A stretch of DNA of 64,000 nucleotides from Eledone cirrhosa (taxonomy: Eukaryota): the NCBI GenBank assembly GCA_964016885.1, contig OZ024744.1:66588001-66652000 (forward strand), written 5' to 3'. This document shows positions 8,292 to 63,220 of the stretch, in pieces. The translations under genes were made by a program, and so were the position numbers. The first letter of the stretch is position 1; each line of letters begins with the position of its first letter. The notes beneath the pieces were generated by a model that saw only the letters and a list, made by a program, of their open reading frames with translations, was not told the origin of the DNA and made no database searches.

Positions 8292-8336
<45 letters not shown>

Positions 8337-8340
<4 letters not shown>

Positions 8341-9886: not shown

Positions 9887-10006
9887 GTGTGTGTGGGGGT
9901 GGGGGTGGGGGTGGGGGTGGGGGGGTTATATTTGTGTGTGTGTGTGGGGGGGGTTATATATGTGTGTGTGTGTGTGTGTGTATATATACATATATATATA
10001 TATATA

Positions 10007-10040
<34 letters not shown>

Positions 10041-13000
10041 GTGAAAAATGGAACGGGAACAAAACAGAGAGGCAGTACGAACAAAGGTTTATTAGTTTCA
10101 CGCTCTTGAGAGTGGGGGGGGGGGGGACGTTTCAGGCATAAGCCCTTCTTCAGGCGAAAAGTGTGTGGGAAGAGAGTTCCGAGGGTGTGTAGGGGAGTGG
10201 ATGAGAGACATTTAGAAAAAGGGTGGGGGGAAAGGGTGGAAGGGGTACAAATAAAAAAAAAATAATAAACATGAAAATAAACAAGTGGTGGAAGGGTGTG
10301 TGGCGTGTAGGAGTGGTGGCGGGTGGAGTGGGGAGAGGGAGGCGGGGTGTCCAAGCGGGGAGGGCTGAAGGTGGTGTATGTGTGTAGGTGTACGTGTATT
10401 TGTGTGTGTATGTGAATGTGAGAGTTGGGGGAAGAACGAGCTTCCATGTTCAGGAAAATGTGTGTGTGGGGGGTGGGGGTGTAGGTCGGTGTGTGTGCAC
10501 GTGTGGATGCGGAGGGGGCGGGAGGATTCCGGATGCTGAGTGTGTATATATGTGGGGGTACGCACGTGTGTGTGGTGTTTATACGTATTGTGGATGTAGG
10601 TGGCATGGTTCTAAAAAAAATTTTTGTTGCCGGATATTTTCAATGTTATGGAGTGGATAGTGGGAACGATGGCCAATGGTGTGTAATCCGTGGTTGTGTT
10701 GGTCGGAAGAGGGGAGATGTGGGGTGCGCGCGCAACAGGAAGTGGTCAGAGGGTCAAGGCAGGAGGGGGGTAGAGGACTGTGGAGAGGGCTGTGTGTCTG
10801 TGTGTGCGGAGAAGTGGTCAGAGGGTCAAGGCATAGCAGCAGTAGAGGAGAGTGGCAGGTGGAGAAAATCAGTGTCAGTGTGTGCTGAGGTGCGGTGGAC
10901 AGGGGAGAGGATGGGTAGGTGTGAAAGGTGGAGTGGGGAGGGGGTCGTGCGGAGGGATGGGGTGTGTATTAGTAGAGGTGTTAGTTGGATGTGTGTGTGT
11001 GAAGGGGTATGGGTGGATCGGGGAGAGGGAGAGAAAGGTGTGGGGGACGGTGGAGGGAGTGTAGTGTACTGGTGTGTGCGTGCGTATTTGGATGAGTGTG
11101 TGGTGAAGGGGGGTGTTAGTATACTGGTGGTGGGGAAATGGTTGAATGCGGGTGTGTTAGTGGGGGTCAGTGGTGGTAGGGTGTGTAGAGTGGGTGGTGT
11201 AAGTGGGTGTGGGTGGGTGTGTGCGTGGGATCAGGGGGATGTTAGTATTGTTAGTTGGGGGAGGGTAGTCGGGGTGGGGTGGGGGTGTTAGTATTGTTAG
11301 TTGAGGGGTGGGCGGTGAAAAGGAGGAGTGTGTTAGTGGTGTTCGTGGGGGATATGTGTGTATGTGGGGGGGATGTCGAAGGCTAAAGGAATAGGGGTGG
11401 GGAGTTCAGGCTGGGGAGGAGTGTGGGTCTGTAGGATGAAGATGGTTCGTTGTTCGACCCTGAGGCGGGTGTTCCGTGGCATTGGAATAGGCCACACACT
11501 GTGAGGTGGTGCGCGGAATGTTCAGGGGAGCCAAAGTGGCGGGTGATGGGGGAACTCCCGCCGAGACGAATATCCCGGTGGGTGTTCGGTGAAACGGTCC
11601 GCCAGGTGACGTCCAATCTGTCCGACGTAGGTTGCGCTACACTCCATGCAGCGAAGTCCATAGACTAGGTTGGAGGAGGTGCGGCGGAAGGCGTGCCGGA
11701 CAGAGAGAGAGTGGCCTTTGGGACCCTGGAAGGTGGTGGTGTTGGTGATGTGGGGGCAGGTGTTGCAACGAGGCCTGGGACAGGGAAGGGAACCGGGGGT
11801 GCGTGGGTTGGGGGGTAGGGAGCTGCGGACGAGGAGGGTGCGGAGAGTGCGTGCGCGTATGAAGGAGGGGAGTGGTGAGGATGGAAAGATGTGGGAGGTG
11901 GAGGGGTCGGACTGGAGGCGTCGGAAGAGGTGGAGGATGGTGCGGTGGAGGGGTGGTAGGTGATGGAGAAGGGGAGACGGTGGGTGGGTGTGTAGTGGCG
12001 TGGGTGAGGGTGGTGGAGCGGTGGACAGCACGGGCGCGAGTGAGGGCAGTGTGGACGAGGGAGGGGGTAACCTCTGCGGATGAAATGGCTGACTAGGGAA
12101 AGGGCCTGGGACTCAAAGTCAGCATCTCGGCTGCAGAGGCGGCGGATCCTGAGGAGTTGGGAGTAGGAAATAGAGTGTTTAGTGTGTGTAGGGTGGGAGG
12201 AGGTGAAGTCGAGGTAGGAGTGGGAGTCGGTGGGTTTGAAGAAGGCGGAGGTGACGAGGGAGTGGTGGGAGGGGTCGATGGCGACAGAGATGTCTAAGAA
12301 GTGGACGTGGGTGGTGGAGATAGAGGTGGTGAAGTCGAGGGAAGGGTGGAAGGAGCAGAAGAAGGAAAGAAAGGAGTCGAGCTGTTCTCGGGTGAGGGTC
12401 GTGGCTCCGATACAGTCGTCGATGTAACGACCGTACAGTTCGGGCGTGGGGCCGGTGTACTGGGGAAAGATTTGGACCTTAACATGGCCAACGAAAAGGT
12501 TGGCATAGTTTGGGCCCATTCTTGTACCCATGGCTATCCCCGTGACCTGTTGGTAAAACTCACCCGAGAAGGCGAAACAGTTGAGGGTGAGGACCAGCTC
12601 GGCGAGGCGAAGGAGGGTGGAGGTGGAGGGATGGGGGAGGGGCGAGGGGCGAGGTAGTGCTTTGGGGCACGTAGGCCGTCGGCGTAGGGGATGATAAAGC
12701 GACTTGATATCTAGGGTGAAGAGGAAGGGCTGTGGGCCGGGTGGGAAGGTGAAGAAGTCGAATAAGCGAAGGGCGTGGTTGGTGTCGGAGATGTGGGAGG
12801 AGAGGGTGGTGACGAGGGGGGCGAGGATGGAGTCAAGAAAGGCGGAGATGAGTTCGGTGAGGCAGTTGCAAGCGGAGACGATGGGGCGGCCGGGTTTGTC
12901 GGGTTTATGGAGTTTGGGGAGGAAGTAGATAGTGGGGTTGCGGGGGGGATATGAGGTAGGAAGCGGGGGGGAGTGGGGGGTGGAGACAAGGTGTTGGTAG

Positions 13001-13217
13001 AGAGGTGTGGGGTCGGAGGGTAGAGGGCGGTAGAAGAGGGGGTTACGGAGCTGCCTGAGGGCTTCAGCCGTGTAGAGGTCAGCGCGCCACACCACCACAT
13101 CGCCTCCCTTGTCCGCCGGTTTGGTGACGATGTCATCTCGGCTACGGAGGGAGCGGAGAGCGAGGAGTTCGCTCCGTGAGATGTTATGCCGTTTGGACCG
13201 GTGGCGGAAGTCGAAGC
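10041..13217 (-). mobile_element. Penelope-like element (Neptune-like), 5'-truncated, frameshifted RT plus GIY-YIG, long low-complexity 3' region
   Basis: ADKG, YFLPKLHK..GRPIVS, GIAMGTRMGPNYANLF, RYIDD, KPTDSHSYL..SSHP; linker CPRPRCNTC; NLVYGLRC..YVGQ..RFTEH. Confidence 0.92.
10126..10153 (-). ncRNA. Minimal PLE-type hammerhead core
   Basis: Minus strand CTGAAGA-agggc ttat gcct-GAAAC-GTC; palindromic mini stem III; stem I not evident (poly-C run). Confidence 0.65.
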
Positions 13218-13222
13218 TATAT

Positions 13223-13253
<31 letters not shown>

Positions 13254-17220: not shown

Positions 17221-17279
17221 CTACTTGTTGGTAATACGATGGAATAATTTATATTTACAGAAATATTTACATAAATACT

Positions 17280-17815: not shown

Positions 17816-18145
17816 ATATATATATATATATAGCAATAAGGAAATGAAGAATAGAAGAAAAAAAAGAAAATAAATAAAAGGAAAGAAGAAATTAAACAAC
17901 GCAAGGAGGAAGGGTAAGGGGGGGGGGGGCGACAGACACTACACTCCAGTCTGTCCCACGGTCAAAATGGGGAAGGTATTGCCACGGAGAACTACCAGTG
18001 ATAGTATTATACAGGAATATCTTCATGGTGGTGCTGATGGTTGTTATGTTATTGTTGTTGCTGTCCAGTTGGGTCTCATGCGTTGAAAAGACTACAGTTG
18101 CTCTTCTAATTCTGCAGTTTACGTTAACTTCCACGTTTCCATCAC

Positions 18146-26710: not shown

Positions 26711-26711
26711 A

Positions 26712-26801
<90 letters not shown>

Positions 26802-26819
26802 CTTATCTATCTATCTATC

Positions 26820-29317
26820 AACGGGCGCGTGCTACCAAGCGGATGTGTGCGGCCTTTCAGCGGCACTTTTCGCAACTGTTCGAGCAGAGTAGCGGTGCGC
26901 CGAACGGGGCAATGGACTTCGGTTCATACCTCGACGGCCTGCCGCGTCTCTCGAACATGGACACCGATTTCTGCGAAAGACAGATCACAACCACTGAGAT
27001 ACGGGACGCTCTGGGCCGCTGCGGGAAACGCAAATCCCCCGGTCTAGATGGTCTACCCTATGAGTTTTACATAGGCATGCCGGACTTGTTCTCTGGCGTC
27101 CTCTAGACCGTCTACTGCAACTGGCAGCAGAACGGGGGAATTCCCAGTTCTGCAGGCAGGGGCGTAGTAACGCTGATCAGGAAAGACGAGAACAAGGGGG
27201 ACGAACTAAGCAACTTTAGGCCCATAACTCTGCTCAACACAGAGTTAAAGATTTTGGCCAAGGTGCTAGCGACGAGGTTGGCGCTTGTCATCGAGAACCT
27301 GGTAGGGAAAGCGCAAACGTGTGCAATCCCGACCAGGTCCATACACAACCTCCACCTCATGCAATACATCATAGAGAGGGTGGGGTGTAAACCCGGCTTC
27401 GGTGGGGCTCCGATCAATTTAGATCAGTCTAAGGCGTTCGATAGGGACGACCATCGATACTTGGAAGCAGTTCTCAAGGCGGCCGGTTTCGGACCCGTCT
27501 TCAGAGGCTGGATCGCCGCAATGCACACCAACATCTCCTCGATGGTCAAGGTGAACGGCTACCTATCGGAGCCGTTCACAATCACGCGTTACATCCGACC
27601 GGGATGTCCTCTCTCCTCCATTCTGTACGTACTGACTCTAGAGCCACTGCTGCGGAAGTTGGTGCTGCTGCAGAGCATTCCGTTGGAACCGGGACTGCGG
27701 AAAGCGGCATCGGCTTATGCCGACGACGTGACGGTGATGGTGTCGGAAGCCTCCGAAATCGGGGCGATCAGGAACTTACTGCAAGAATACGAAAGGCTCA
27801 CAGAAGCAAAACTGAACCCGGACAAGTCTGTCGGTTTGCAACTCGGAACGTGGAGAGGCAAACCGATGCCGTCCGACAGCGTCGTCGGACGCTGGACGGA
27901 CGGACCGGTGAAATTGCTCGGGGTTTGGTTCGGTCCGTACCTCCAGGTGGAGAAAAACTGGAACGAGGTCGCGGCCAAGGTATTTGCGCTCACACAGAAA
28001 TGGGCAGAATGTAAACTATCCTTGAAAGGTCGAGCGGAGGTGGCGAACACACTCATAACGTCCGTCGTCTACTACCGCTTGACCTTCGTGCCTTGTCTCC
28101 GTGAACACCCCATCAAGATGGAACGCATGCTCTCCCAGTTCCTTTGGAAGAAGCAGGCTCTACCGGTGAGGAGATCCGTCTGCTGTCAGCGCCCTTCCAA
28201 CGGAGGCCTGGGAATGCCGTGGCTGATGATGCGAAAACATGCGCTGAGGCTACAGCATCTACAGGTATTCCTCACCGACCCCGAACTGGTGTGGGCACCG
28301 TTTATGAGACAGGCCGTCCCACAACTTGTCTCCCTGACGGAGCTGCAGTCCTGGGTCAAGCGGAGACCGAAGAAGATGGGCGCCTGGCACATTGAATGCG
28401 CTCAGGCGCTCACAGTCCTCTGTCAAGCGGGCACAGTAATCAGTGGAGACTCCACTTCGACATTCTATAGAGGGTTAGTACGTCACAAGCGCGACGACAT
28501 GCTCGCAGAGACTCTAGGCGTCGAAGACGACGAACTCACCAGTCTGTTTGGTAAGACTTTCCGCCCGGGACCTATGGACAACTTCCAGAGGTCCCTGGCC
28601 TGGCAGTGCTACCTAGGAGATCTGCCAGTTCGTGACAAGATCTACAGGCACAGACGCCCCGGCAGGGATCCTTCCAAGAGGACGTGTCCAAGATGCGCGC
28701 AGGTTATTGAAACCGTCCTGCACGAAATTGTACACTACCCGGGCGTAACCGACCTGTGGAACTACGCGGATCAACTGCTCTGGCGTATGGGACAAATCCA
28801 GTTGACTGCCGAGTCCATAGTAAGGATCAAACCACCAACTTCTTTCAAAAACGAAAGAGAGGCGGTTTTCCTCTGTATAGTAGCTATGGTGGACGAGATT
28901 GAGAGGACTGAGGACAGACGCCTTTCTCTCCGGACAACAACTCATTCCCTTCTTTAGATACCATTTAAAAGGAGAACCAGAGTGGAGAGAGAGGCACTGC
29001 ACCCCAGTAAATTTACTGAAAGGTGGGTGAATGTGGCAAAAATGGCCCAAGTGATTGGGCCTTCTTTGTATATAAACCTGTAGGTTGAAGAAGAGAGCAA
29101 AAGGAAGAAAGGAGCACTTGCACAACACGCTCCTGAAGTTGAGGGTTGTTCTATCGACGGGGTATTAAACAACCCATTTGTGCCGCCTCCCCCCTATTGG
29201 GTATTTCGATTGTTATAATTGTTTGTTTAATATTTTTTTACACGATTGTATGTAAAATCCCCGGCATGTCTTTGTTGTGTCCTCTTTTCTTGTGCGCCCT
29301 TGTGGCAAATAAAGAAA
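26820..29317 (+). mobile_element. Tx1/L1-type LINE copy 2, 5'-truncated, disrupted
   Basis: ORF 27254-28957 homologous to copy 1 (AYADD); same tggcaaataaagaaa end followed by (TCTA)n. Confidence 0.95.
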
Positions 29318-29333
29318 TCTATCTATCTATCTA

Positions 29334-32300
29334 CCTCGGATAGTTGACGTGTGCCACTTCGCTGGTAAGTTTTTTTTGTTAATTTTGCATGCAAAAAACA
29401 GGATTTTTTGTTGAAAAGTATATTGTCTTGTAGATTGTCTCCCCCGTCTGAATTGTCAGCGGGTGGGTCATCTTACCCCCCCCCCCCCTCGCCCCGGTGG
29501 AAATTTAATTAAAAAAGATTTGAAAAATTGTTTTAAAATCACACACAAAAATGGATAGCTGAGAAGAGACGCTAGTCTTGCCTACTGCTACAAATGGGCA
29601 GGGGGCGGTAAAGTTGAACGTTGCCAAGTCGTCTGCCTGTACAGATGTTGCTTTAGTGAAGTCTGTTAACAGCAACAACATGGAAAACTTTCGTAAAGAA
29701 AATAATTGTTTCTACTTTTGGCACAAGGCCAGCAATTATCCCAGTGCATTACTGGTACTTTATTTTATCGACCCCGTAAAGATGAAAGGCAAAGTTAACC
29801 TCGGCGGGGAAAATAATGATGCACAAACTACACCAACTACTGAACAGGAAAAACAACACCACAACCAAACAAACAAATTCCACCACTAAAAACGAAACAA
29901 CAATTGAGGACAACAACAACAGTTCATTCACTTAGACATTTCCAATGCAATGCGAAAGAAATGATCATTGAAGGATAAAAACACATCATTTTTTAAGAAA
30001 AAGTGTGTGTGTGGGGTGGGGTCGAATAACCTCACCCCAGAAATTAGAGCTGAGACCCTTCGGAAGACTCATCTTTCGAACAATCTCAAACACATTAAAA
30101 AACCGGCATTCCTCACTCAAGGCGAAATTGAAATAGTCTTGAAGGAGGCTTTGCCGGACATTGACTTTATGCAAAGGGCCAAGCAATACGGAAGCATTTC
30201 GATGCTTTTCAAAAGCGAGGCCCTTGCACAAGAATATTTTGTGACTGGTCACCTCAGCAAAACACACCTTTTCCCCTACATACATGGGGAAAATGACACA
30301 AAAAATAAAAGTTTTCAACATACCACCAAATATAAATATCTGGTAGATTTTGGCAGGGTTCTTGGAGGAAGGAGAGAACACCATCCTCTCCATTAAAAAA
30401 GTCTACAGAAACACCTGGAATGGCACTACTCTGGAACTTCTGGTCCAAATGAGACCAGAAAGATTTTCGAAAATTCCAGAGCGAGTGCCAGTTGACAACA
30501 ACTACATTAAGATTTCGACTGAAGGAGGGCTACCACATTGTTTTCGATGTTCCAGTATATCGCATTTAAAAGCCTCCTGTCCTCCACAAATAAACAGTAA
30601 AAGCAAAAATAAAGTACTTTTGTCGACACCAACACTAAAACCATAACAACAACACACAAAACAAGCAAACATACAAAAACCAACAACTGCACAACCACAA
30701 ACAACAGAAAAGACACAAACAATTCCCCTGAAAAACACGGTCCAACCTCCTCCTACTCCATTCAACACTACCGCAACCACACACACAAACACCCCAACCC
30801 CATACAACACACCTCTATCCATACACCCCAGATGAAAACACATCAGATGAAGCAACCTCTCCATCTCCAAGCGAAGATGGAGGAGAGCCTCAGAAATCCA
30901 AAGGACAAAAAGAAAAGACACCGCAAAACCACAAAAACACCAATCACCAACACAAACACACAACCCCTAACACAAACAACAACACAAACGCCACCACAGT
31001 CATCCCCCCTTCTATCAGCAAAACAAACACCAACACCACCCAGACACAAATACCCACAATCAAAAGAAAATTGCAAAACGAACAACAAACAAAAACAACA
31101 CAACAAAAATCCAAACAAAATACACATACATCAACACAAAAAACAAAGACCTGATGGAGGTCATCTCCAAAGAACCAAAAGTGGAGACCGAAGGGAAAAC
31201 TTTCACAAAATCAGGAACAGCACCACACCTGAAAATGATAAGGGTTCCAAAGGAAACCTACAACAAACTGAAAGACCAATTTTCACAGGACGTCGGAGTC
31301 CCATACCAAAAACCTATAAACCGCCAACTCTTAAATGACCTTAGTTGACATGGTATAGATATGATAGCCATCAGTGAGTCCAGGATCCACAACAAGCAGC
31401 AATTAACCCCCATCTTCGATGACTTTGAGATCTACGCGTCTATGTGTCAGCCAGGAGGTGGAGGGGAGTTTCGGAAAAACCTGGACCTCGAAATACAGAA
31501 AATCTACTTGGACCCGGAGGGTAGACTGGTGGTCCTAGACGTGAACAGTGGTGAAGGTGGAGCCTTCAGACTGGTGGCCCTGACTGGGACATCGCGACCA
31601 GACTTCTTTAAGCGTCTAGAGTCCTTTATGGGAACGTATAGCTCCTTGCTTTTAGTGGGGGACTGGAATGGTATCCTGGATGCACGTTAGGACTATGTGG
31701 GAACATGCCTCTATAGAGAGGGAGGGGGTGCAACAGCCTCAAAAATTTAATCGGCCAATTCCAACTGGCCGATAGATATCGACTAGATTTCCCAACGGTA
31801 CCACTGTGGACGTGGACGAATCGTAGTGGGACATCTAGATCGTATTTAGACAGGTTTATAATTAGAGAAAATGTACACAAATGTACATGGTTGCCTATTC
31901 GGACCACAAATTAGTCATCTGCATAGTCAACCATGATAGAACGCATAGACAGGGACCCGGATACTGGAAGCTGAACATGTCGTTACCGACGCGTAAAGCT
32001 TACAGTAGACGGATAATTAGTTTAGTTAAGCACCAGTTGACGGGAGCCATCGTCAACAACAGATGGTGGTGCTCTCTCAAGAGAGCAATTAGACTAGAAT
32101 CCATAGCTTTTAGCAAAGAACTAGCTTTAGGAAAAAAATAAAACAGAAAAAGAATTAGTAGCTAAAGTAGAAGAGGCGCTTAGGAGTGGCAACACAGCTA
32201 GCGTGCTAGCAACGTGAACGGCACTGGACCAGTTCTTCGATGCGAAACACGAAGACTGCGTTGTCAGGAGTAGATCACGTGCTCTAGGTAACGAAGGCGC

Positions 32301-34150
32301 AAAAGCTGTTAGCTGGGCGTGAGTGGCACAGGCAAAAAGTGGCAACAAGTCCACGATTCGGTTTTGAAAGACCAAAACGGACGCGTGCTACTTGAATCCA
32401 AACAGATGTGCACGGCCTTCCAGCAGCATTTTGCACAACTCTTCGGGCAGAGCGGTGCGCCGAAAGAGGCAATGGACTTCGGTTCATAGCTCGACGGCCT
32501 ACCGCGACTCTCGAGCATGGACGCGAAGTTCTGCGAAAGACCGATCACAGCCGCTGCGGGAAATGCAAATCTCCCGGTCTAGATGGTCTACCCTATGAGT
32601 TTTACATAGGTATTCCGGTCTTGTTCGCCGACCTCCTCGAAGCGGTCTACTGCAACTGGCAGCAGAACGAATCACGCGTTTCATCCGACAGGGATCCCCT
32701 CTCTCCTCCATTCTGTACGTGCTGACTATCGAGCCATTACTGCGGAAGCATCTCTTTGGAACTGAGACTGCGAAAAGCAGCGTCGGTTTATGCCGTAACA
32801 GTAATGGTGTCGAAAACCTCGGAAATCGGGGTAGTGGGCAACTTACTGAAGGAATACGAAAGGCTTACAGGAGCAAAACTGAACCCGAACAAGCCTGTCG
32901 GTTTGCAGTTCGGAACGTGGAAAGGCAAACCGATGCCAAAATGGAACGTATGCTCTTCCAATTCCTTTGAAAGAAGCAGGCTCACCCGGTGAGGAGGTCC
33001 GTCTGCTACCAGCACCCTTCCAACGGAGGGATGGGAATGCCGTGGCTGATGATGCGCAAACACGCTCTGAGCTACGGCATCTCCAGGTATTCCTCTCCGA
33101 CCCCGAACCGGTGTGAGCCCCGTTTGTGAGACAAGTCTTTCCGCAACTTGTCTTGCTGGCGGAGCTGCAGTCCTGTGTCAAGCAGAGACAGAAGAAAATG
33201 GGCGCCTGGCATATTAAATGCGCTCAGGCGCTCACAGTCCTGTCAAATGGGCACAGCAATCAGTAGGGACACCACTTCGTCATTCTGTAGAGGGTTATTA
33301 CGGTACAAGTGCAATGACGTTCTCGGAGAGACTCTGGGCGTCGAAGAAGACGAGCTGACCAGTCTGTCCGGTAGGACTTTCCGCCCAGGACCTATGGCCA
33401 ACTTCCAAAAGTCCCTAGCCTGGCAGTACTACCGAGGAGCTCTACCAGTACGCGACAAGATCTACTGGCACGGACGCCCCGGCAGGGGGTCCTTAAAAGA
33501 GGGCGTGTCCAAGATGCGAACGGGACATTGAAACCGTCCAGCACGCAATTGTACACTGCCCGGGCGTAACCGACCTGTGGAACTACGCAGAACAACTGGT
33601 GTCGCGTGTGAGACAAATCTAGTTGACCACCGAGTCCATAGTAAGGATCAAACCGCCACCTTCATTTAAAAACGGAGATGCGGTTTTTCCCTGTATGGCG
33701 GCTATGGTGAAAGGAGTAATATGGTGGACAAGGTTGAGAAGACTGAGGACAGATGCCTTTCTCTGCGGACAACAGCTCATTCCCTTCTTTAGATACCACT
33801 TCAGAAGGAGATTCAGAAAGGAGAGAGAGGTACTGCACCCCAGTAAATTTACTGAAAGGTGGGTGAATGTGGCGAGAATGGCCCGAGTGATTGGGCCTTC
33901 TCTGTTTATAAGCCTGTAGGTTGTGGAAGAGAGCAAAAGGAAGAAAGGAGCACTTGCACAACACGCTCCTGGAGTTGAGGATTGTTCTATCTACGGAGTA
34001 TTAAACAACCCATTTGTAACGCCTCACCCCTATTGGGGATCTAGATTGTTATAATTGTATGTTAACATTTTTTACACGATTGTATGTAAAATCCCCGGCA
34101 TGTCTTTGTATTGTCCCCTTTTCTTGTGCGCCCTTGTGGCAAATAAAGAA
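29334..34150 (+). mobile_element. Tx1/L1-type LINE copy 3, near full length but decayed, with internal RT deletions
   Basis: ORF1 remnant with zinc knuckle CFRCSSISHLKASC (about 30540); APE remnants (IAISES, GDWN, SDH); SINE fragment nested at 29702-29808. Confidence 0.9.
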
Positions 34151-36132: not shown

Positions 36133-36151
36133 ATGTATGTATGTATGTATG

Positions 36152-38112
36152 TACTTCTGGTTTTATAATTTCACAAAGTTTTACCAATAGAGAGAGAGAG
36201 TCGGTTTCTAACATAGACACAAGACTCTCTCATTGGAATTTACACAACATCAACTAGGTAGATATGTATGTCTGCATGCATGCATGTGTAGATATGGATG
36301 TTATTGTATGTGTGGATGTGGATGTTTTGAGTTGTATGTGTGCATGTGTATATGCTTTGTATCTGTACATGTGTATATGCAGTTAATAGATGCAAAGTTT
36401 TGGGAATGTTTTACATATTTTTACTGTTCCATTAATGGATTGTACTTGTAATTTCCTAACTAGTTGTGTTCTTTCTGTTACTGTGAAGCCTAGCTTCTCA
36501 AGATTTGTATTGAGGCAGTTACTAACATACCCCAGTGCCCCAATAATCACAGGCATAAATCTGAAGGTGTAATCAGGGTGGAGTATCTGCAGATTTCTCA
36601 TCAATTCTGCATAAATATTCTCCTTTTCACTAATCTTTGATATTATATTGGCATCTGCTGGGCAGCTAATTTCCACTACTGTGCATGTTTTCTTCTCCCT
36701 GTCCCATATCATAATATCTGGTCTGTTATGCCTGCATTTTATTGGATTTTACTGGAACATTCCACCAGTACTCTTTCATATTATGTACATGGATGTCTTC
36801 CACATTGTTGTAGCTTTTAATGTGTTTATTATCGGGGCTATCTTTTTTACGAACTGCATTGTACAGTGTTTTGGCCACTACATCATGCCTCATAGGTAGA
36901 TAGTACCGTGATGACATCTTTGGGCAGCTGCTGATGACATGGGTGACATCTTCGATGTTAATTCTGCAGAGTCTGCACTTGTTATCACATCTAGGTGTTT
37001 TGCCTGCATCCCTATCTCTTTTGTGAATCAGGTATCTCGTGCTAATCTCCTGTTCTTGGATTGCAAAAGCGTATCCTTCAAAGTGGGAGCCAATATAGCG
37101 GTTGTTGGTCCAAGATAGACTACTTTCCTTATCTATATTACTCTCACTCTGGAGCTACCTGGCAACATATCCATGCATGATTTTTTGCTGATAGGCATGC
37201 AGTTTTTCATCCATGGATTCACTGCGATACTGCTGAGCGACATCCCTGGGTGGGAGTTTTTGATTATCACACAGGGAATATCTCTCGAGGAGTTCCTTCC
37301 CAACTCTCATGATCTTATCTGTTTCATGCAGATAGACTTGCTCGAGAAGCGGGCTCCTACGCATCGAGGTTCGTAGATGTTGTCGGAGAGATATGATGCG
37401 ACATTCAAATGTTGTCTGGACTGATGTTAGGCCTCTGCCTCTCTGCTTACGTTTCAAGTAAAGGTGGTCTATGTCACTGTTGATGTGGAAGTTTCCGGTG
37501 TTGTTCAGTATTTTTCGAGTTCCAACATCAACTGCTCGGATTTCGTCTATCGTTCAATTGAGTATTCCAAACGTTGGTGTTAGGACAGTCACAGCAAACA
37601 CATTGTGAGCCACTGTTTTGTTTTGCGCAGAGAGTTCCGATGACCAGATCTTTCTTAATCGGGTGTAGTATTCCCTGGTTACGCGTTCTTTATTACAGAT
37701 ACCATTATAGGATATGTTCTCATCTATCCCCAGGTATCTGTAGCAGTCCTCATCAGATATCGGTGAAACAGTTAGACCATTGATGACAATGTTGCTAGAT
37801 TGGGTTGTTGTTTTTCCCCGCTTTACAGTCATGTATGAGCATTTATCTTGGCCAAACTCCATTCCTATATCCTTTGAGAACGTTGTAACCAGGTCAAGAT
37901 TTTTCTTCATCCCATCCATGTTCTTGGCATAGAGTTTCAGATCGTCCACAAAGAAGTTATGGGTTAGGTTCGTATTTCTGTCCTCCTGTGAGCCAATGAT
38001 GTATCCCTCACATTTCTTGAGCAGAAAGGACAAGGGGTTTAATGACAAGATGAACAATATCACAGAGAGACTGTCCCTCTGAAATATACCCCTGCAATAT
38101 TTTATTTTATCA
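36152..38112 (-). mobile_element. R4/Dong-type RLE LINE, 3' half
   Basis: FFVDDLKLY RT motif, CCHC region, RPD..VEISC endonuclease; close to 50452-52400. Confidence 0.9.
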
Positions 38113-40274
38113 AACTATGTAAAGATTCATAGCTATCAACAGACCCTAGAGGTCTACAGAGATACAGAGAGATCGGAGCCCTACTACTACAGACCCACTA
38201 TTTGAAAGATACATCGTGGTCTACAATCAATTACAGACCATTACTCTCTCTCACTCACTATGGTCTCAGAACTACTAACACGGACTCCAACAACAACAAC
38301 AACATTATCTGTTCGCTCTCTGTTTTCACACCAACAACAGTCAACTACTACAGACTACAACATCCCCATGAACCAAATACAAAAATATCGTTGTCTACCT
38401 TCTCAACTCTGGGTAACTGTTTTATTATACTTTTTAATTGATTCACGTGAAGTAAACCATATATAAACTAAAATCATTTATTCTTATTATTCTTGTTATT
38501 AAATCTAATAACCATGTTAATCCATTTAACAATTTCTTATTTTTACCTTTCATTAAATTGGTGACCTGACGTTAAAAAAAAGAAAATTAAAAATAATACG
38601 AAGTGGTATTTAAAAAAAAAGAGGACCACGCAGCGTTTTGATCTGATCATGGCTTCTATTGCCAATATCAACAACTTTCTCTTACCAAGCTTCTCATCTA
38701 TATTCTACGATATGATAAAACTTCACTTTTTCAAATTATTCACCAAACTACCATTCAACGAAATATTTACAGTGACTTCGCTTTTATGTTTCGATTAATT
38801 ACCAAACACTTCACCACTTGCTTCGTAATCTCCAACAACAACAGATAATACTACTAGCTTCCTTGCAAGAAAACTATAACATAAAGAAGAGAGAACTGAA
38901 TTTTTAGTAAAGAACAATTATATAAATTTTTTTTTTAAATTTTATTTTTTTTACAGGCTGTATATGAATGTCATTTTTTATTTATTTGTATTCGTTTTAC
39001 TGTATTATATGCCTGTATGAATAACACACATCATTTTCTTTGTCACACACCAACATGTTTTTGTCTATGGTATATTCTGGATTCGGTTGGGTCTCTGCGG
39101 GATCACTTTTCAACTGGTCAAGGTACGGCAAAAGCTATTAAACACATGATAATCAACCCACGGTTACTACTCGCTCGACTCACTGAGAACGCAACTCAAA
39201 ATTGCTCACACTCATGTCATAGCTTAAACCTCGACTCACTGGAAAAGAATCTTACGTATTCGAGAGAAATAGTCCATATTGTAATCCGATACCGTAACCC
39301 CAACGTCCATCCATCCATACACAACAGTTCGAAATTCATGATCACAACTTTGTATTTTTACAGTTTCTTCTAAATGTTACACACACACATGCATACACAG
39401 TTATACTATCTTTTTTTTCTCTCTCCAAATTTCTCTACACTCAAAGTGCGGGCGCAGCACCCACATTTTGTGTGTTTTGGGACACGCTTCTAGGAATCAG
39501 ATTTCGCTACCCCTTTTATAATCGATCGCTGCTCCTGCATCGATCTGGTAGGGAACTAATGTAGCAAAGTCTGTCCGCGCCTTGAACCTTGGGTGACACC
39601 TAAAGGTCAAATTCTAGGTCACCACCATTTTGGTGTGAACAAGATGATGCGTTGGCTATCCCCTCAAGGTGGGAGACAGGAAGCCACAGGTATATAAAGC
39701 CTTTATCATCCCACGTTTACACAGAGCCATCGGAGCACGCCACTACAGAACAAGCTATGTGAAAGATTCACCACTATCAACAGACCCTAGTGGTCTACAG
39801 AAAGACAGATAGATCGGAGCTCTACGATACACAACAAACTATGTAAAGATTCATAGCTATCAACAGACCCTAGAGGTCTACAGAGATACAGAGAGATCGG
39901 AGCCCTACTACTACAGACCCACTATTTGAAAGATACACCGTGGTCTACAATCAATTACAGACCATTACTCACTATGGTCTCAGAATTACTAACACGGACT
40001 CCAACAACAACAACAACATTATCTGTTCGCTCTCTGTTTTCACACCAACAACAACAGTCAACTACTACAGACTACAACATCCCCATGAACCAAATACAAA
40101 AATATCATTGTCTACCTTCTCAACTCTGGGTAACTGTTTTATTATACTTTTTAATTGATTCACGTGAAGTAAACCATATATAAACTAAAATCATTTATTC
40201 TTATTATTCTTGTTATTAAATCTAATAACCATGTTAATCCATTTAACAACTTCTTATTTTTACCCTTCGTTAAA
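38111..40274 (+). mobile_element. Non-autonomous LTR retroelement (5' LTR truncated 38111-38557; 3' LTR 39560-40274)
   Basis: About 440-bp direct repeat; PBS tggtgacctgacgt at 38559 (tRNA-Trp-like); purine tract ggtagggaa before TGTAGC; TATA-like ggtatataaa in the LTR; about 1 kb internal region without pol. Confidence 0.8.
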
Positions 40275-42868: not shown

Positions 42869-43822
<954 letters not shown>

Positions 43823-43826
<4 letters not shown>

Positions 43827-44016
43827 GGAACCAGTAAGACCCCGACAGCTGAGCTCAAGCCGTTTCGACGGCTAATTCTCTTTGAATTAGCCGTCGAAAC
43901 GGCTTGAGCTCAGCTGTCGGGGTCTTACTGGTTCCTATTATCCACTCTACTACCTCAAGTATTGAGTACTTTGGTGCGTTATGGTCCACCTGGTTCCTTA
44001 CCACATTTCCTTCGTT
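43823..44016. mobile_element. Fold-back PLE-type end, family J (3' half of a hammerhead on each arm)
   Basis: Inverted arms centred near 43887; GAAA-cggct..agctg-TC; related to 62975-63171. Confidence 0.75.
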
Positions 44017-44582
44017 ATATATATATATATATATATATATGCTATTTTGCTGAACTCTTACATTTGTAGAGTTTTTTCGGAATGTTTTTTGACTGCTGTT
44101 TCCTGTAAACAGACATTCGTCTCATTCTGACGTCACCAGCCATGTCTCTCCATGTGTGTTTATTTTCCTAATTACGCATGATGTGAACTAGCCTGCTTTT
44201 AAATTCACTTTTTGGCATATTCTAAACAGTGGTTCTAGGGTTATCGTGTTTTGAGCTCTGCTGACGATCGACTCCAACCGTGGCCATCCCCACTGAAAGT
44301 TTCGTGAAATAGTCTTTTTAAGATTATACAGAACATTTGTAGTTTTTCCAAATTGAAGGATGAGTATTTAAACTTTATTTTATTCTGAGTTAAGGCTCTA
44401 TTAATTTTTCCCTGGATTTCACAAAATTCTGTGGATAAATCTGTCTTGATTTTTTTAAAATTGATTTTGAATTATTTTCCCACATCTTACGTTAACTATT
44501 TTTCCATTTTGACGTTATAGTCACTTATATATTATGAAATACTGTTGGCTTCATGCTCACAATTTCTATACTTTCATTTATA

Positions 44583-44686
<104 letters not shown>

Positions 44687-44988
44687 AATATTTTCGAAAC
44701 AGCGAGCGGGTTTGAAATTATTATAAATCTAAGCTATCGCCGTATTTTGACTAAAGAAATTATTTAGTCTGATAGTGGAAAAAGACGGGTGATGTGTTGG
44801 TGTAAATGGTAGCACAGTGGTCTGGATAACCAAAGATGTGGGGCGACTCCCATGTACGTCAATACTCATCTTTTTCCATTTTCCCCGAGGGTTCTTAACC
44901 CCACTATCAGGCTAAATAATTTCTTTAATTTCTTTAGTCAAAATACGGCAATAGCTTACATTTATAATAACATATATATATATACATA

Positions 44989-49789: not shown

Positions 49790-50450
49790 TATCTCTGCTG
49801 ATACATGGGAAAATGTTGCTGCTGATCGTAATAAATGGCGAAAGACTGTATATGAGGGGAAAGTTGCCTACGAGAAAGTAAAACGGGATGTGAGGAAGGG
49901 CATTGCTGTTGCATTTCCAGACGGCGAAGGTCTTCCTATGGCGCTGACATGCAGCATCTGTGCGAGACTCTGCCTAAGCAAAGCTGGACTCGAAAGTCAT
50001 CTTCGCAGTCAAAGTAAGACCAGTGGTTGACTACCAGGCTGCTGTTGGAGATGCTACTCATCATGCTTGCCAAGCATGTGGTAGAGAATGTAAATCAGCA
50101 GGAGGGCTCAAACGACATGCAAAAGTACATGAACTTCAACCACGGCCGGCTATTCCTAGTGAATGTTTTGGTTGCCAACTCTGTGCAAGACATTTCAGAT
50201 CATTGGCTGGGCTAAAAAACCACATTCGATCGCAGCACTGTTAATTGCTATCGTGTGTGTGTAGATATGTTTATGTGTGTGCGTGTGTGTGTATATATAT
50301 TTGTTTATTATTATTGTTGTTGTCCTCATTATTATTGTTGTTGTTGTTGTTATTATTATTATTATTATTACTATTATTGTTATTATTATGGGTTTTTTTC
50401 TCATGCAATGGCCATACTCGATAACGAGGGGGTAGCCATCATGTATGTAT
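49790..50450 (+). mobile_element. RTE-type LINE 3' end with three C2H2 zinc fingers
   Basis: WENVAADRNKWR, then CSIC..GLESH, CQAC..GLKRH...H and CQLC..GLKNH...H across one frameshift; ends in (ATGT)n. Confidence 0.75.
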
Positions 50451-50451
50451 G

Positions 50452-53400
50452 TTCTTCAGGTTTTATAATTTCACAAATGTTTACCAATAGAGAGAGAGAG
50501 TCGGTTTCTAACATAAATACAAGACTCTCTCATTGGAATTTACACATCAAATAGGTAGATTATGTCTGCATGTCTGCATGTGTTGATACGGATGTTATTG
50601 TATGTGGATGTGGATGTTTTGAGTTGTATGTGTGCATGTGTATATGCTTTGTATCTGTACATGTGTATATGCAGTTATTAGATGCACAATTTTTGGAATG
50701 TTTTACATAATTTTACTGTTTCATTAATGGATTGTACTTATAATTTCCTAACTAGTTGTGTACTTTCTGTTCCTGTGAAGCCTAGCTTCTCAAGATTTGT
50801 ATTGAGGCAGTTACTAACATACCCCAGTGCCCCAATAATCACAGGCATAAATCTGAAGGTGTAATCAGGGTGGAGTATCTGCAGATTTCTTATCAGTTCT
50901 GCATAAATATTCTCCTTTTCACTAATCTTTGATATTATATTGGCATCTGCTGAGCAGCTAATTTCCACTAGTGTGCATGCTTTCTTCTCCCTGTCCCATA
51001 TCATAATATCTGGTCTGTTATGCCTGCATTTTATTGGGATTTTGACTGGAACATTCCACCAGTACTCTTTCATATTATGTACATGGATGTCTTCCACATT
51101 GCTGTAGCTTTTAATGTGTTTATTATCGGGGCTATATTTTCTACAGATTGCATTGTACAGTGTTTTGGCCACTACATAATGTCTCATAGGTAGATAGTAT
51201 CGCGATGACATCTTTGGACAGCTGCTGATGGCATGGGTGATATTCTCGATGTTAGTTCTGCAGTGTCTGCACTTGTTATCACATCTAGGTGTGTTGCCTG
51301 CATCCCTATCTCTTTTGTGAATCAGGTATTTCGTGTTAATCTCCTGTTCTTGGATTGCAAAAGCGCATCCTTCAAAGTGGGAGCCAATATAGCGGTTGTT
51401 GGTCCAATATAGACTACTTTCCTTATCTATATTACTCTCACTCTGGAGCTTCCTGGCAACATATCCATGCATGATTTTTTGCTGATAAGTATGTAGTTTT
51501 TCATCCATGGATTCACTGCGATACTGCTGTAGACTTCCCTAGGTGCGAGTTTTTGATTATCACACAGGGAATATCTATCGAGGAGTTCCTTCCCAACTCT
51601 CATGATCTTATCTGTTTCATGCAGATAGACTTGCTTGAGAAACGGGCTCTTACGCTTCGAGGTTCGTAGGTGTTGTCGGAGAGACATGATGCGACATTCA
51701 AATGTTGTCTGGACTGATGTTAGGCCTCTGCCTCTCTGCTTACGTTTCAAGTAAAGGCGGTCTATGTCACTGTTGATGTGGAAGTTTCCGGTGTTGTTTA
51801 GTATTTTTCGAGTTCCAACATCAACTGCTCGGATTTCGTCTATCGTCCAATTGAGTATTCTAAACGTTGGTGTTAGGACAGGCACAGCAAACACATTGTG
51901 AGCCACTGTTTTGTTTTGCGCAGAGAGTTCCGATGACCAGATCTTTCTTAATCGGGTGTAGTATTCCCTGGTTACGCGTTCTTTATTACAGATACCATTA
52001 TAGGATATGTTCTCATCTATCCCCAGTTATCTGTAGCAGTCCTCATCAGATATCGGTGAAACAGTTAGGCCATTGATGACAATGTTGCTAGATTGGGTTG
52101 TTGTTTTTCTCCGCTTTACAGTCATGTATGAGCATTTATCTTGGCCAAACTCCATTCCTATATCCTTTGAGAAAGTTGTAACCAGGTCAAGATTTTTCTT
52201 CACCCCATCCATGTTCTTGGCATAGAGTTTCAGATCGTCCACAAAGAAATTATGGGTTAGGTTCGTATTTCTGTCTTCCTGTGAGCCAATGATGTATCCC
52301 TCACATTTCTTGAGCAGAAAGGACAAGGGGTTTAATGACAAGATGAATAATATCACAGAGAGACTGTCTCCCTGAAATATACCTCTGCAATATTTTATTT
52401 TATCAGTGAAAATAGAGTCCACCCTCTCTGATTTTAACCTTAGGATAGTAGCCCAAGAAGAAGACAGCTTCTCTATGGCTCTGATAATAATGTCTGGGAC
52501 TTTAGCAAGTTGGAGGGCCTCTATCATCCAAGAGTGGGGAACAGAATCGAAAGCTTTCCTGTAGTCCAGCCAGACTGTAGTCATATTCCTCCTAAGTTGT
52601 CGCACCTCCGACATCGCAGTTTTGTTGATTAGGAGTTGTTCAGCACATCCCCCAACATCCCCTTTCTTTCCAGCTGTGATGATGTTATTATTTTCTTTTC
52701 ATCCCCTTTTCATTCCCTTTCTTTTCATCTGTGATGATGTTATTATTTTCACAGTGATCTTGGAGGAATAGGTTCAGGCAGGCTGTATACATCTTATACA
52801 TCAGGTTCTGGCATGCAATGGGTCGGTAGTTTTTTGCCAAGTGGGTGTCTTTGTTCTTGGGGACCAGTAATATTTGTGCTAATGTCAACCATTCTGGTAT
52901 AAGTGTATCTCCCTTAAGACCTTGTTGGTAGAGGTCAGAATATCATTTTTTTGTACCAGTAGCCGACAATCATGTCTCTTCATTGTGTTTTCTTATCTTG
53001 GAGTTTTCCTATCACAGTCTCAAGGGTACCCTCACTTATTTCGTATGTTTTTGTTGTAGTGTAGGAGCAATAGTTCTTTGGGATTTCTCTTAGCCACACT
53101 GCATCTTGGTTGAAATTCTACTTTTCACCCCATATTTTGCTCCGAAAGGAATCTATGTCTTTCTGGGATGGGGCCTCAGTGACACTTATTATTTTGTTCT
53201 TCATATCTCTATAGACTGATGTTTGGTTTCGTCTGAATCTTTTATTAAGCACTTTTCTTTCATCTACTTTCTTCAGGTATCGGCGTTTTTCGCTAACAGC
53301 TCTCAATTCTTGTTTGAGGGTGATCAGCTTATATTGGAGAGTTCTGGTTCTACTGTTACCAAACATCGTCTCTATTTTATTTTTCACTCTTTGTTGGTGA

Positions 53401-54585
53401 GGAGTGAGGTTTTTTTGTGTTTGTTTGCATATAAGGAGCATTGTCACATATCCTATGTTTTTTCGTAGGTCAGCAATCTTTTTTTCTATTTTAGTTATAT
53501 ATGATGGTTTTTTGGTGGTGTTCTGGTCTTGTTAATATCTCTGCTATCACCAAGATAATGCTTAACTGTCGTTGCTAGGGCATATAAACAGGCGTTGATT
53601 TGCCAAAATGTTGGGGTTTTTATTCGTTGTAAATATTCATCCCCTATTTCGTCAATAACACGTAATATTTCATTATTTGGTTTTTTATTAAATATTGTTG
53701 TTTTAATACGTTCAACAAGAGAGATATGTGTACATGAATTAATTTCTCTCTGGAAGATTTCGTTGAGGGAAATTTTCAATTGTTTATACTTTTGATTATT
53801 ATCATTATTAATAGTATTTTCCACAAAAAGTCGAGGTAGACTCGGATGGTACATGTGGTGTCAAATTTCTTCGATTATTATTATTATCGATAGTCTTTTC
53901 CCCAGCATTCGAGGTAGACTTAGATGATACAGGTGGTGTCAAGTTTCTTACAGGCATAGTTGTTTCAAGGCGCTGTTCGACCTGGCTGCTAGGAAGTCTA
54001 GTAGCATGGCGACCTGTAGCACGTGTTGTTGATAACATGTTTGTTGTGGGGGACTTACAATTAATAATATTTATCTTATTTTTACGTTCAACAAACGTGG
54101 CTTGTTGGTGTAATTGTTTCGCTGTGAAATAATTTAGCTCTGGGTGCATTTCCTCCCAGTTTAGCTTCATTCTATTCATATAGCCAATGGAGGGATTGTT
54201 TTTTGCCATTTTATAACAATTAAATAAATCATTATTAAGTTCGCAACTCCAAGAGAAATGCGATTTATAATTTCGGTCTCTTCTGTAGCTACAACTGAAT
54301 AAAGTTTGATTACCTTTCTTGTTGGTTGTCTTCGGTACTTCCTTAATGTTGTTATTGATGTTGTGTTCAGCCATGCTGTTTGTAGCAAATCCTTGTAAAA
54401 TGAATTAGGTATTTAGTCGGATATCTCTACGAATTCGAATAAAAGGTGTCTTCAGAAGATATAGTTAGAAGAATAACCAGTTATTCAATATGACTGTAGT
54501 TGTGGCATTACTGTCGGAGATAGTATTCATCTTAAATTTAATAAATAGTCTCCCACGCTAAAATTTGCGACTGATCGCGTTGACT
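50452..54585 (-). mobile_element. R4/Dong-type RLE LINE, apparently full length, multiply frameshifted
   Basis: NYRPIAC, WLDYRKAFDSVPHSW, GIFQGDSLS, FFVDDLKLY, CRHC..H...C, RPD..VEISC; (TATG)n at both ends. Confidence 0.92.
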
Positions 54586-55532: not shown

Positions 55533-55586
<54 letters not shown>

Positions 55587-55646
55587 ATAATGATAATAAT
55601 GGAGCTGCGGCGTTGCAAATGGGATACATATGAAAAAGTGAGTCCT

Positions 55647-55711
55647 TCATCAGTGACCCTCCAACCGTCGTCGGCATTTCATCGCTTTAAGGGCCATATG
55701 CCTCAGGTTGG
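55647..55711 (-). ncRNA. Rearranged hammerhead candidate (family B), copy 1
   Basis: Reverse complement of 56637-56701; a further copy lies at 56433-56497. Confidence 0.7.
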
Positions 55712-56636
55712 TGCGAACAACGGCTAAAAAAAGTCGTTGGGACACGTAAATAAAGGGGGACGCTAGAGTAACAACAAAAAGGTTTAAGCAACGGAAAGTG
55801 AGTAGAAATAGACAAGTCCCAGATCTCTATGAATATAAACTCTGTGAAATCGTGAACAAGAGACGAAAGACCATCAGACCTGGTTGAAATGTGAGCAAGG
55901 AAAGAATTTCGCCCAAGTTTGACGGGGGGGAAAAAAGAGAGAGAGAGAGAAAGAAGAAGAAGAAGAAGAAGAAGAAGAAGAAGAAGAAGAAGAAGAAGAA
56001 GAAGAAGAAGAAGAAGAAGAAGAAGAAGAAGAAAAAGAAGAAGAAGAAGAAGAAGAAGAAGAAGAAGAAGAAGAAGAAGAAGAAGAAGAAGAAGAAGATA
56101 AGGGGGTCTGGTCTACGAATTCGGTAAACGCAAGTTTTGTGAAGTCGCAGACGAAAGAGAGAGAGAAAAAAATTCCATACCAGCTCGGTCAAGACTGCGC
56201 GAGAAAAGAATTACACACAGGTCAAACTTGAAGGAGGAGGAGGAGAGGTAGTGACAGAGAATGAGTGAGTGAAAGTTGAGGAGAGAGTAACAGAGAGGGA
56301 GACTGCTAGAAGTGGTAAAGATACAAGGAACGAAACAGACGAAGGCAGCATGGAAAAGTTATATGTGTAAATATGATGATAATAATGGAGCTGCGGCGTT
56401 GCAAATGGGATACATATGAAAAGGTGAGTCCTTCATCAGTGACCCTCCAACCGTCGTCGGCATTTCATCGCTTTAAGGGCCATATGCCTCAGGTTGGTGC
56501 GAACAACGGCTAAAAAAAGTCGTTGGGACACGTAAATAAAGGGTACTCACTTTCCGTTGCTTAAACCTTTTTGTTGTTACTCTAGCGTCCCCCTTTATTT
56601 ACGTGTCCCAACGACTTTTTTTAGCCGTTGTTCGCA

Positions 56637-56701
56637 CCAACCTGAGGCATATGGCCCTTAAAGCGATGAAATGCCGAGGACGGTTGGAGGGTCACTGATG
56701 A
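56637..56701 (+). ncRNA. Rearranged (non-circularly permuted) hammerhead candidate, family B
   Basis: ggcat-A-tggccctt-aaagcgat-GAA-atgcc..gagggtca-CTGATGA: stems III and I pair in exact hammerhead register, but the strand order is crossed. Confidence 0.7.
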
Positions 56702-56712
56702 AGGACTCACTT

Positions 56713-56752
<40 letters not shown>

Positions 56753-62046: not shown

Positions 62047-62305
62047 CAGGTCGCTCTCGAGTGCGACTGGTAACATGTAATCCAGTTATACGTATTTCAC
62101 TGAGGACTATCAGTTAAGATAGCCGAAGCTCTTCAGACGGCAAAACCTGAAATAAACATTGAAAGTTCCTAAGAAACCTTTAAATTTTGAAGAATCCAAT
62201 AATTTCCCGGAAAAGGTTTTCCTTTCATCATACAGGGGCCTTCTGAGCGCGTGGTGTTGTTTTTTTGACAGCCTCTCTCTCTATATATATCATATATATA
62301 TATAT

Positions 62306-62949
62306 ATGAAAAATATGAAAACATGGCGTGCTGCGTGGTTGCAAATGGATTACATATGAATAAAACTAGTCCTTCATCAGTGATCTTCCAACCTTCATTG
62401 GTATTTCATCGCTTTAAAGACCATATACCTCTGGTTGGTGCGAGCAACGGCTAAAGAAAGTCGTTGGGACACGTAAATAGGGGGAACAAGCGACATAGTA
62501 ATCAAACAAAGATAGTAATGCAACGAAAAGTGAGGAAGAAGGAATCAAGTCCCTGAAATCGATGAACATGAGTTCTGTGAAATCGTGGACGAGAGAGAAT
62601 AAAGACCATCAAACCTGGTCGAAGTGTGAGGAAAGAATCTCGCACAGGTCAAACGGGAGGAAGTAGGAGAGGGAGTAGCAGAGAGTGAGTGAGTGAAAGT
62701 GTGAGGAAGAGGCTAACAGAGAGAGTGACTGGTAGAGGGGGTAAAAGGAAGTGAGAGATACACAGAGAAGGGGAAGCAGTCAGAAAGAAACAGACGGGTC
62801 ACAGCGGAGGAAAATATATATGAAAAATATGAAAACATGGCGTGCTGCGTGGTTGTAAATGGGTTACATATGAATAAAATTAGTCCTTCATCATCTCAAG
62901 AGCGTGAAACTAATAAACCTTTGTTCGTACTGCCTCTCTGTTTTGTTCC
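62306..62949 (-). mobile_element. Diverged family B copy (period 514 bp) ending in an inverted Neptune-PLE terminus
   Basis: 62306-62379 repeated at 62820-62893; 62894-62949 is the reverse complement of 10056-10111. Confidence 0.85.
62374..62438 (-). ncRNA. Rearranged hammerhead candidate, diverged copy with compensatory changes
   Basis: ggtat-A-tggtcttt-aaagcgat-GAA-atacc..gaagatca-CTGATGA. Confidence 0.7.
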
Positions 62950-62974
62950 GCATATATAACCGCATATATATATA

Positions 62975-63171
62975 TAACAAAGAGGGTGTGGTAATATACC
63001 AGGTGGACCATAACGCACCAGAGTACTCAATACTTAGGATAGTAGAGTGGGTAATATGAAAAGAGTCAGGATCTCGACGGCTGAGCCCCAGCCGTTTCGA
63101 CAGCTAGATTCGAAATTTAGATCTACCTGTCGAAATGGCCGGAGCTCAGCCGTCGAGATCCTGACTCTTTT
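62975..63171. mobile_element. Fold-back PLE-type end, family J
   Basis: Inverted arms centred near 63114; GAAA-cggctg..cagccg-TC; tail shared with 43940-44016. Confidence 0.75.

Positions 63172-63220
<49 letters not shown>

What the first reader, a model, noticed from the sequence alone, without database searches (positions are those of the whole stretch)
62820..62949. Family B copy capped by the exact 3' terminus of the Neptune-like PLE: candidate helper identified
Seen: where the 55.6 kb copy has its own inverted end, this copy has 56 nt (62894-62949) identical to the reverse complement of 10056-10111, the post-hammerhead terminus of the Neptune-like element. It lies in inverted orientation and joins inside B's CTGATGA with no (TA)n spacer. 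Inference: one integration event used B RNA for one arm and Neptune RNA for the other, implying that the Neptune RT/GIY-YIG mobilises family B.
Basis: partly seen in the sequence, partly recalled or inferred. Interest (0 to 1): 0.7.

Follow-up and report, generated by a model that had tools for sequence, protein, structure and literature searches.

The report
Back-to-back chimera of two Penelope-type RNAs
A non-coding jumping repeat sits back-to-back with a 56-base scrap of a different, enzyme-coding Penelope-type transposon, likely because two different RNAs were copied into the two sides of one DNA break; the repeat is joined the same way to several other families, so this joint does not single out that transposon as its helper.

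Summary
The 56-nt identity, inverted orientation and missing TA spacer are real. But the piece stops 15 nt short of the Neptune-like terminus, and the same 56-mer occurs in 20 of 70 sampled tails. With both arms short, the joint is unique genome-wide (1 hit versus about 209 B–B inversions). A cleaner B–Neptune chimera exists on C1 (L170). However, B is also joined head-to-head without TA to families C and H and to a third coding family (PLE3), and F–Neptune and E–PLE3 joints exist too. B inserts with two fixed ends (36 of 40 inversions pair tailed with tail-less). PLE3 and PLE2 also self-invert and have several fixed ends; the Neptune-like family has one end and no self-inversions in any sample. 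Best reading: an occasional two-RNA insertion, a route known for L1 and not found in print for Penelope elements. Nested insertion with deletion remains a strong rival. Neptune as B's specific helper is unlikely. B also carries a permuted (S-G-C order) hammerhead. Earlier scan notes report similar two-armed insertions elsewhere in this genome.

The parts
62306..62819 (-). Family B, one full 514-nt non-coding unit; its tailed 3' end abuts (TA)n at 62306
   Evidence: tailed vs tail-less ends
62820..62893 (-). 5'-truncated second B unit (74 nt, partial tandem); its 5' side is the chimeric joint and lacks the first C of CTGATGA
   Evidence: 62300-62379 vs 62814-62893, 96%
62373..62438 (-). Predicted S-G-C-order (non-circularly permuted) hammerhead in B; predicted cut between 62424 and 62423; stem II supported by one pair only
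   Evidence: 95% of cells paired, 4 pairs with two-sided change, slid controls 33-53%
62894..62949 (+). 56-nt Neptune-like 3' fragment, downstream of the hammerhead, 15 nt short of the family's usual end, head-to-head with B, no TA spacer
62948..62975 (.). Atypical 3' junction: an 11-nt unit ending in TA repeats, duplicated locally, then a short (TA)n
   Evidence: read directly
62976..63184 (.). Separate two-armed insertion of family C across the TA tract
   Evidence: match to 43777-44042; self-inverted 63059-63171
10041..13223 (-). Neptune-like PLE copy, 5'-truncated and frameshifted: RT, Cys linker, C-terminal GIY-YIG, minimal type I hammerhead at 10153, terminus at 10041
55584..56740 (.).

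Best explanation
The locus is a back-to-back joint between family B and a Neptune-like tail scrap, likely made in one insertion in which the two ends of a break in a TA tract were each extended on a different RNA and the truncated 5' ends were then joined. Shown: the anatomy; that B normally inserts as one or two arms with two fixed 3' ends; that such mixed joints recur with several partner families. Inferred: that both arms come from one event; that the Neptune RNA was caught by chance in place of a second B RNA (which would explain its non-standard 3' end); that B's usual helper is a two-arm-forming PLE such as PLE3 or PLE2 or one not yet found, not the Neptune-like family.
For: No TA at the joint, while 54 of 70 non-self B 5' junctions keep TA. 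36 of 40 self-inverted B insertions pair a tailed with a tail-less arm, and here a tailed B arm faces a shortened partner. A second B-Neptune chimera has a tail-less B arm and a 2.2-kb Neptune arm with a standard end, and neither element's remainder is seen on the far side. In 381 loci not chosen for their junction, mixed-family head-to-head joints were 4 TA-less vs 2 TA-spaced, tandem joints 7 vs 31 (p=0.027). B-C (L315) and B-C-like (L365) pairs fit the tailed/tail-less rule. A Poseidon PLE protein cuts and extends both strands in vitro and is a predicted dimer (PMC11167929). Opposite-orientation two-RNA insertions are seen for L1 (PMC11702581).
Against: Numbers are small and the family library is incomplete. 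Nested insertion would itself give head-to-head joints about twice the TA-less rate of tandem ones; 4 of 6 against 1/3 is only p about 0.10 (hand arithmetic). Most TA-less B junctions abut DNA outside the library, SINEs, a LINE or a MITE-like repeat: 4 of 16 and 5 of 34 had a library partner. The B-PLE3 chimera has two tail-less arms, as do 3 of 40 B self-inversions. No target-site duplication can be read in (TA)n. At least 3 of 24 short Neptune scraps abut non-TA DNA anyway. B shows no 3' similarity to PLE2 or PLE3 either.
Confidence: 0.5

Rival explanations
1. Two independent insertions into one TA hot spot: one element landed beside the other and the spacer was lost at the 5' junction or by a later small deletion; a similar loss clipped the Neptune end.
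For: Three families stack within 900 nt here. About a fifth of B 5' junctions are TA-less and mostly abut unrelated DNA. Tandem TA-less joints with clipped partner ends also occur (L026, L246, L318, L366). Short solo Neptune scraps are 24 of 70 tails. The local duplication at 62948-62975 shows secondary change at this site.
Against: TA-spaced head-to-head neighbours are rarer than TA-less ones (2 vs 4; 3 vs 7 over all 486 records), opposite to tandem joints. In L170 neither element is split by the other.
Confidence: 0.35
2. The Neptune-like RT/GIY-YIG protein is the specific helper of B, and the chimera is its footprint.
For: Two direct B-Neptune joints (window, L170) and one through an H fragment to a Neptune variant (L192/L283). 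Both families target (TA)n. Near-complete Neptune frames exist (938 and 951 aa among 150 hits).
Against: 0 short self-inverted Neptune tails genome-wide against about 209 for B. 0 close inverted pairs among 150 Neptune RT hits against 10 among 150 for PLE3. One end versus B's two. No shared 3' sequence. Different hammerhead order. B also pairs with C, H and PLE3. Deeper-anchor searches found no further B-Neptune joints.
Confidence: 0.12
3. Assembly artefact joining two repeats.
For: The joint was not independently seen in public runs of the species.
Against: The joint is base-sharp, and joints of the same kind occur on other chromosomes.
Confidence: 0.03

Closest known systems
Penelope-like element insertions with an inverted 5'-truncated arm and optional tail (Craig et al. 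2021, PMC8557442, passages; Arkhipova et al. 2013, PMC3846280, passages)
   Same: Head-to-head arms, partial tandem, tail on one arm only, (TA)n target.
   Different: There both arms come from one family; here they come from two. PMC3846280 reports no cross-mobilisation between PLE types in the rotifer.
L1 insertions made from two RNAs in opposite orientation (PMC11702581, passages)
   Same: Opposite DNA ends extended on different templates and then joined.
   Different: Human L1 in cultured cells with poly-A and readable target-site duplications; here PLE-type RNAs fixed in a germline genome, in TA tracts.
Animal non-LTR retrozymes (Cervera and de la Pena 2020, PMC7229834, passages; Li, Clavereau and Pollet 2026, 10.64898/2026.07.22.740005, parts 1-3 of 5)
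   Same: Non-coding tandem units with a hammerhead, proposed to use PLE enzymes.
   Different: Those carry type I hammerheads and, in Xenopus, resemble pLTRs; B has S-G-C order and no detected similarity to the three coding families tested.
Type-SGC hammerheads (Eckert et al. 2023, PMC10085705, passages)
   Same: Order site, GAAA, CUGANGA, with covarying stems I and III.
   Different: Reported from metatranscriptomes; B's stem II is one canonical pair in my model and cleavage is untested.

Membership tests
EN+ Penelope-like element (10-13 kb element) | PLE-type RT with C-terminal GIY-YIG | tested here: met
   (2059 relatives with RT; several listed carry PF01541); Pfam itself gave no hit on the broken window frames
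Neptune clade | CX2-5CXXC linker upstream of GIY-YIG (shared with Nematis per PMC8557442) | tested here: met
   C-x4-C-x2-C in the 11522-12112 frame
Neptune clade | Phylogenetic placement of the RT with labelled Neptune references | not tested
   No labelled reference sequences were held; Nematis is not excluded
Neptune clade | Minimal type I hammerhead in the pLTR | tested here: met
   motif at 10153, - strand; folding and cleavage not tested
Non-autonomous partner of the Neptune-like family (B) | Shared 3' or pLTR sequence | tested here: not met
   local alignment scores within shuffle range
Non-autonomous partner of the Neptune-like family (B) | Same insertion signature | tested here: not met
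   both target TA, but B has two ends and self-inversions while Neptune has one end and none
Non-autonomous partner of the Neptune-like family (B) | Preferential chimera formation with Neptune | tested here: inconclusive
   2 of 5 TA-less head-to-head B joints are with Neptune, one being the finding itself; others are C, H, PLE3; no full census
Non-autonomous partner of the Neptune-like family (B) | Trans-mobilisation by the protein | not testable with these tools
   needs an assay
Non-LTR retrozyme (B) | Non-coding tandem units | tested here: met
   514-750-nt units in arrays
Non-LTR retrozyme (B) | Type I hammerhead in each unit | tested here: not met
   no CUGANGA..GAAA order in B; S-G-C order instead
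Non-LTR retrozyme (B) | Self-cleavage and circular RNA | not testable with these tools
   no RNA data laid
Type-SGC hammerhead (B) | Block order and stems I and III | tested here: met
   (14 related rows, two partly misaligned; structure drawn from these sequences)
Type-SGC hammerhead (B) | Stem II helix | tested here: inconclusive
   one pair, 11 of 13 cells paired

The most novel reading that the evidence does not exclude
Penelope-type integration primes both sides of a break independently and accepts different RNAs on the two sides, so this genome holds hundreds of mixed-family back-to-back insertions (B-Neptune, B-C, B-PLE3, F-Neptune, E-PLE3). Their census would map which coding family serves which non-coding ribozyme repeat, and would settle whether the inverted arm of PLEs comes from a second RNA rather than from self-priming.
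Probability: 0.45. Interest if true: 0.68.

Novelty: new variant of a known kind. Interest (0 to 1): 0.45.

Why it matters
How PLEs make their inverted arm is open: PMC3846280 favours self-priming, and PMC8557442 calls for a system to explain it. Arms from two different families cannot come from self-priming on one RNA, so real mixed chimeras would be direct genomic evidence for two-template, two-ended integration. They also offer a way to assign helpers to retrozyme-like repeats, which is so far argued from co-occurrence and pLTR similarity. This single joint does not make that assignment.

Tried and rejected
Rfam scan: no hammerhead family among the 150 of 160 listed matches. Pfam on the window frames found no family for the three PLE pieces. 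B 5' region traced for a coding parent: none; RT or EN hits near B belong to neighbours. B 3' region against Neptune, PLE2, H, N2, C, E, K, F, A and PLE3: no score above shuffles. The short anchor also hits other hammerhead families; one search was therefore useless for B, and the single hit (L223) is another family. One search missed the T-variant subfamily, counted. One search had one B reference in the wrong orientation and was replaced. Public runs: no RNA holder listed; no listed piece bridged the joint, in fragmented contigs and RAD reads with tables cut, which is no evidence either way. 'Octopus' in two paper searches was my guess; no call names the organism. No genome-wide count of B-C or B-PLE3 joints was made.

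Full report
Observation. Window 62894-62949 equals the reverse complement of 10056-10111 over 56 nt. B lies on the - strand: a full 514-nt unit at 62306-62819 and a 74-nt partial unit at 62820-62893. The Neptune piece is in its sense orientation on the + strand, so the two 5' sides meet, with no (TA)n, and the first C of B's CTGATGA is missing. The piece is not the terminus: the family ends 15 nt further on. In 67 of 70 position-ordered tails the TA tract starts 35-48 nt after the anchor, and none stops where this one does. The piece is followed by a short local duplication and then by a separate family C insertion. The exact 56-mer is present in 20 of 70 tails, and the tail has 2273 exact 18-mer hits in the 3.0-Gb genome, so the match to the 10-kb copy says nothing about the donor.

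The partner. The element at 10041-13223 is a 5'-truncated, frameshifted PLE with RT, a C-x4-C-x2-C linker, a C-terminal GIY-YIG and a minimal type I hammerhead. The linker fits Neptune or Nematis (PMC8557442, passages read); no tree was built. 24 of 70 tails are scraps starting after the hammerhead, at least 3 of them abutting non-TA DNA. The family showed no self-inversion: 0 genome-wide within 100 nt, 0 close inverted pairs among 150 RT hits, and none at the 5' junctions reached in the 70 tails, in 19 longer fetches or in 30 RT loci.

Family B. It has 5260 plus 2077 exact 17-mer hits. In 100 overlapping position-ordered loci the 5' junctions were 54 with TA, 22 self-inverted arms (about 14 insertions) and 16 direct. 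36 of 40 self-inverted insertions pair a tailed with a tail-less arm; 3 have two tail-less arms and 1 has two tailed. B has no type I hammerhead. Following a lead from an earlier scan note, it reads as site, GAAA, CUGAUGA: 95% of cells paired, 4 of 19 pairs with two-sided changes, slid controls 33-53%, stem II one pair only (PMC10085705, passages read). The structure was drawn from these related sequences, so the controls flatter it.

Is the chimera recurrent? With both arms short, this locus is the only hit, against 418 strand hits, about 209 loci, for B-B (that anchor can also hit other families, though the 100 listed rows read as B or variants). A deeper B anchor gave 0, and a deeper Neptune anchor gave 1 hit of another family. 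These patterns reach only 100 nt and miss long arms. The position-ordered sample did yield a long one: L170/L329 on C1, a tail-less B arm of about 135 nt joined without TA to about 2.2 kb of Neptune with a standard end. One in about 85 insertions gives a wide interval (0.03-6.4%). L192/L283 has a tail-less B arm, an H-family hammerhead fragment and a Neptune variant, without TA.

Two patterns enriched for truncated B (100 of 332 and 100 of 236 places listed; 60 fetched as loci plus 34 picked by eye) gave 34 direct junctions, a few mis-called. 5 had a library partner; PLE3 was added later. Over all held loci, TA-less head-to-head joints were B-Neptune twice, B-H, B-C, B-PLE3, E-PLE3 and F-Neptune, plus a C-like partner seen by eye (L365). 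Tandem TA-less joints of B with E, F, K and N2 also occur, and most direct junctions abut DNA outside the library, SINEs, a LINE or a MITE-like repeat. Neptune is one partner among several. In 381 loci not chosen for their junction, head-to-head joints were 4 direct and 2 with TA, tandem 7 (two are duplicates of one) and 31, tail-to-tail 0 and 41 (p=0.027). Allowing that nested insertion should double the direct rate for head-to-head joints leaves p about 0.10 by hand. This is suggestive of single two-RNA events, not proof.

Other candidate helpers. PLE2 (window 8.3-9.9 kb) has at least 150 copies at 90% or more identity in the endonuclease, several fixed ends and self-inverted arms. PLE3, found from L018, has many 900-905-aa open frames, tandem arrays, 10 close inverted pairs among 150 hits and two fixed ends 40 nt apart; the six separately fetched inverted pairs and the inverted array each end tailed on one side, and tail-less on the other wherever that side was covered. 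That is B's signature. B has no 3' similarity above shuffles to any of the three. Further PLE families are present, so the helper stays unassigned.

Mechanism. Shown: the anatomy and the counts above. From the literature: a Poseidon protein cuts and extends both strands, starts at two internal RNA sites that define the tail, and is a predicted dimer (PMC11167929, parts 1-2 of 4 read); L1 makes opposite-orientation insertions from two RNAs (PMC11702581, passages read). Inferred: a break in (TA)n was extended on B RNA from one side and on a Neptune RNA from the other, at a non-standard start, and the ends were joined (0.5). Rivals: nested insertion with spacer loss (0.35), Neptune as specific helper (0.12), artefact (0.03).

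Novelty. Inverted arms and tails are standard PLE anatomy (PMC8557442, PMC3846280, passages read), and PLE mobilisation of retrozymes is already proposed (PMC7229834, passages; bioRxiv 10.64898/2026.07.22.740005, parts 1-3 of 5). Mixed-family inverted PLE insertions were not found in seven searches of the held library, which lacks most subscription journals; PMC13282606 was seen only as a search listing. Earlier scan notes describe two-armed ribozyme repeats and one helper joined to a copy elsewhere in this genome; they are unchecked AI notes. Family letters and the names PLE2 and PLE3 are my labels. Verdict: real joint, wrong 'exact terminus', helper not identified; a new variant of a known kind, interest 0.45.

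Noticed in passing
window 62373-62438 (-) and 55650-55715 (-); B loci in alignment A2: Family B carries a predicted S-G-C-order hammerhead with covarying stems I and III, in thousands of genomic copies.
   Followed up: partly
L441-L455 (e.g. G000:C4:233387500-233397400): Very young PLE family (PLE3) with intact 900-905-aa frames, tandem arrays and inverted pairs with tailed and tail-less ends; the young copies have a C in place of the usual U in the hammerhead core.
   Followed up: partly
window 8330-9900 (-) and 17247-17821: Second coding PLE family (PLE2), directly downstream of the Neptune-like copy, at least 150 close copies, with self-inverted tails.
   Followed up: partly
L283:1137-1240, L460, L438, L457: Tandem TA-less joints between different families (H to Neptune variant, Neptune with PLE3, PLE3 to PLE2, SINE to Neptune) that could be template jumps.
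   Followed up: no
L455:4154, L273:3587-3640: Mixed head-to-head joints not involving B: E with PLE3, F with Neptune.
   Followed up: partly
L193-L222: Many further hammerhead tail families share a core with B's second half; one (L221) lies downstream of a Neptune-related endonuclease.
   Followed up: no
L330 (just beyond the window end), L120, L279, L417: A further Cys-linker PLE family, 30-35% identical to the window's RT.
   Followed up: no
G000:C3:90199064-90221462: Neptune-like RT repeated four times at about 7.3-kb spacing, a possible large tandem array.
   Followed up: no
window 23811-33953; 36141-38558 and 50441-54404; 6091-6987; 44791-44861: Three LINE copies of one family, two copies of another RT element, an RTE-like RT fragment, and one tRNA-like Rfam hit.
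   Followed up: no
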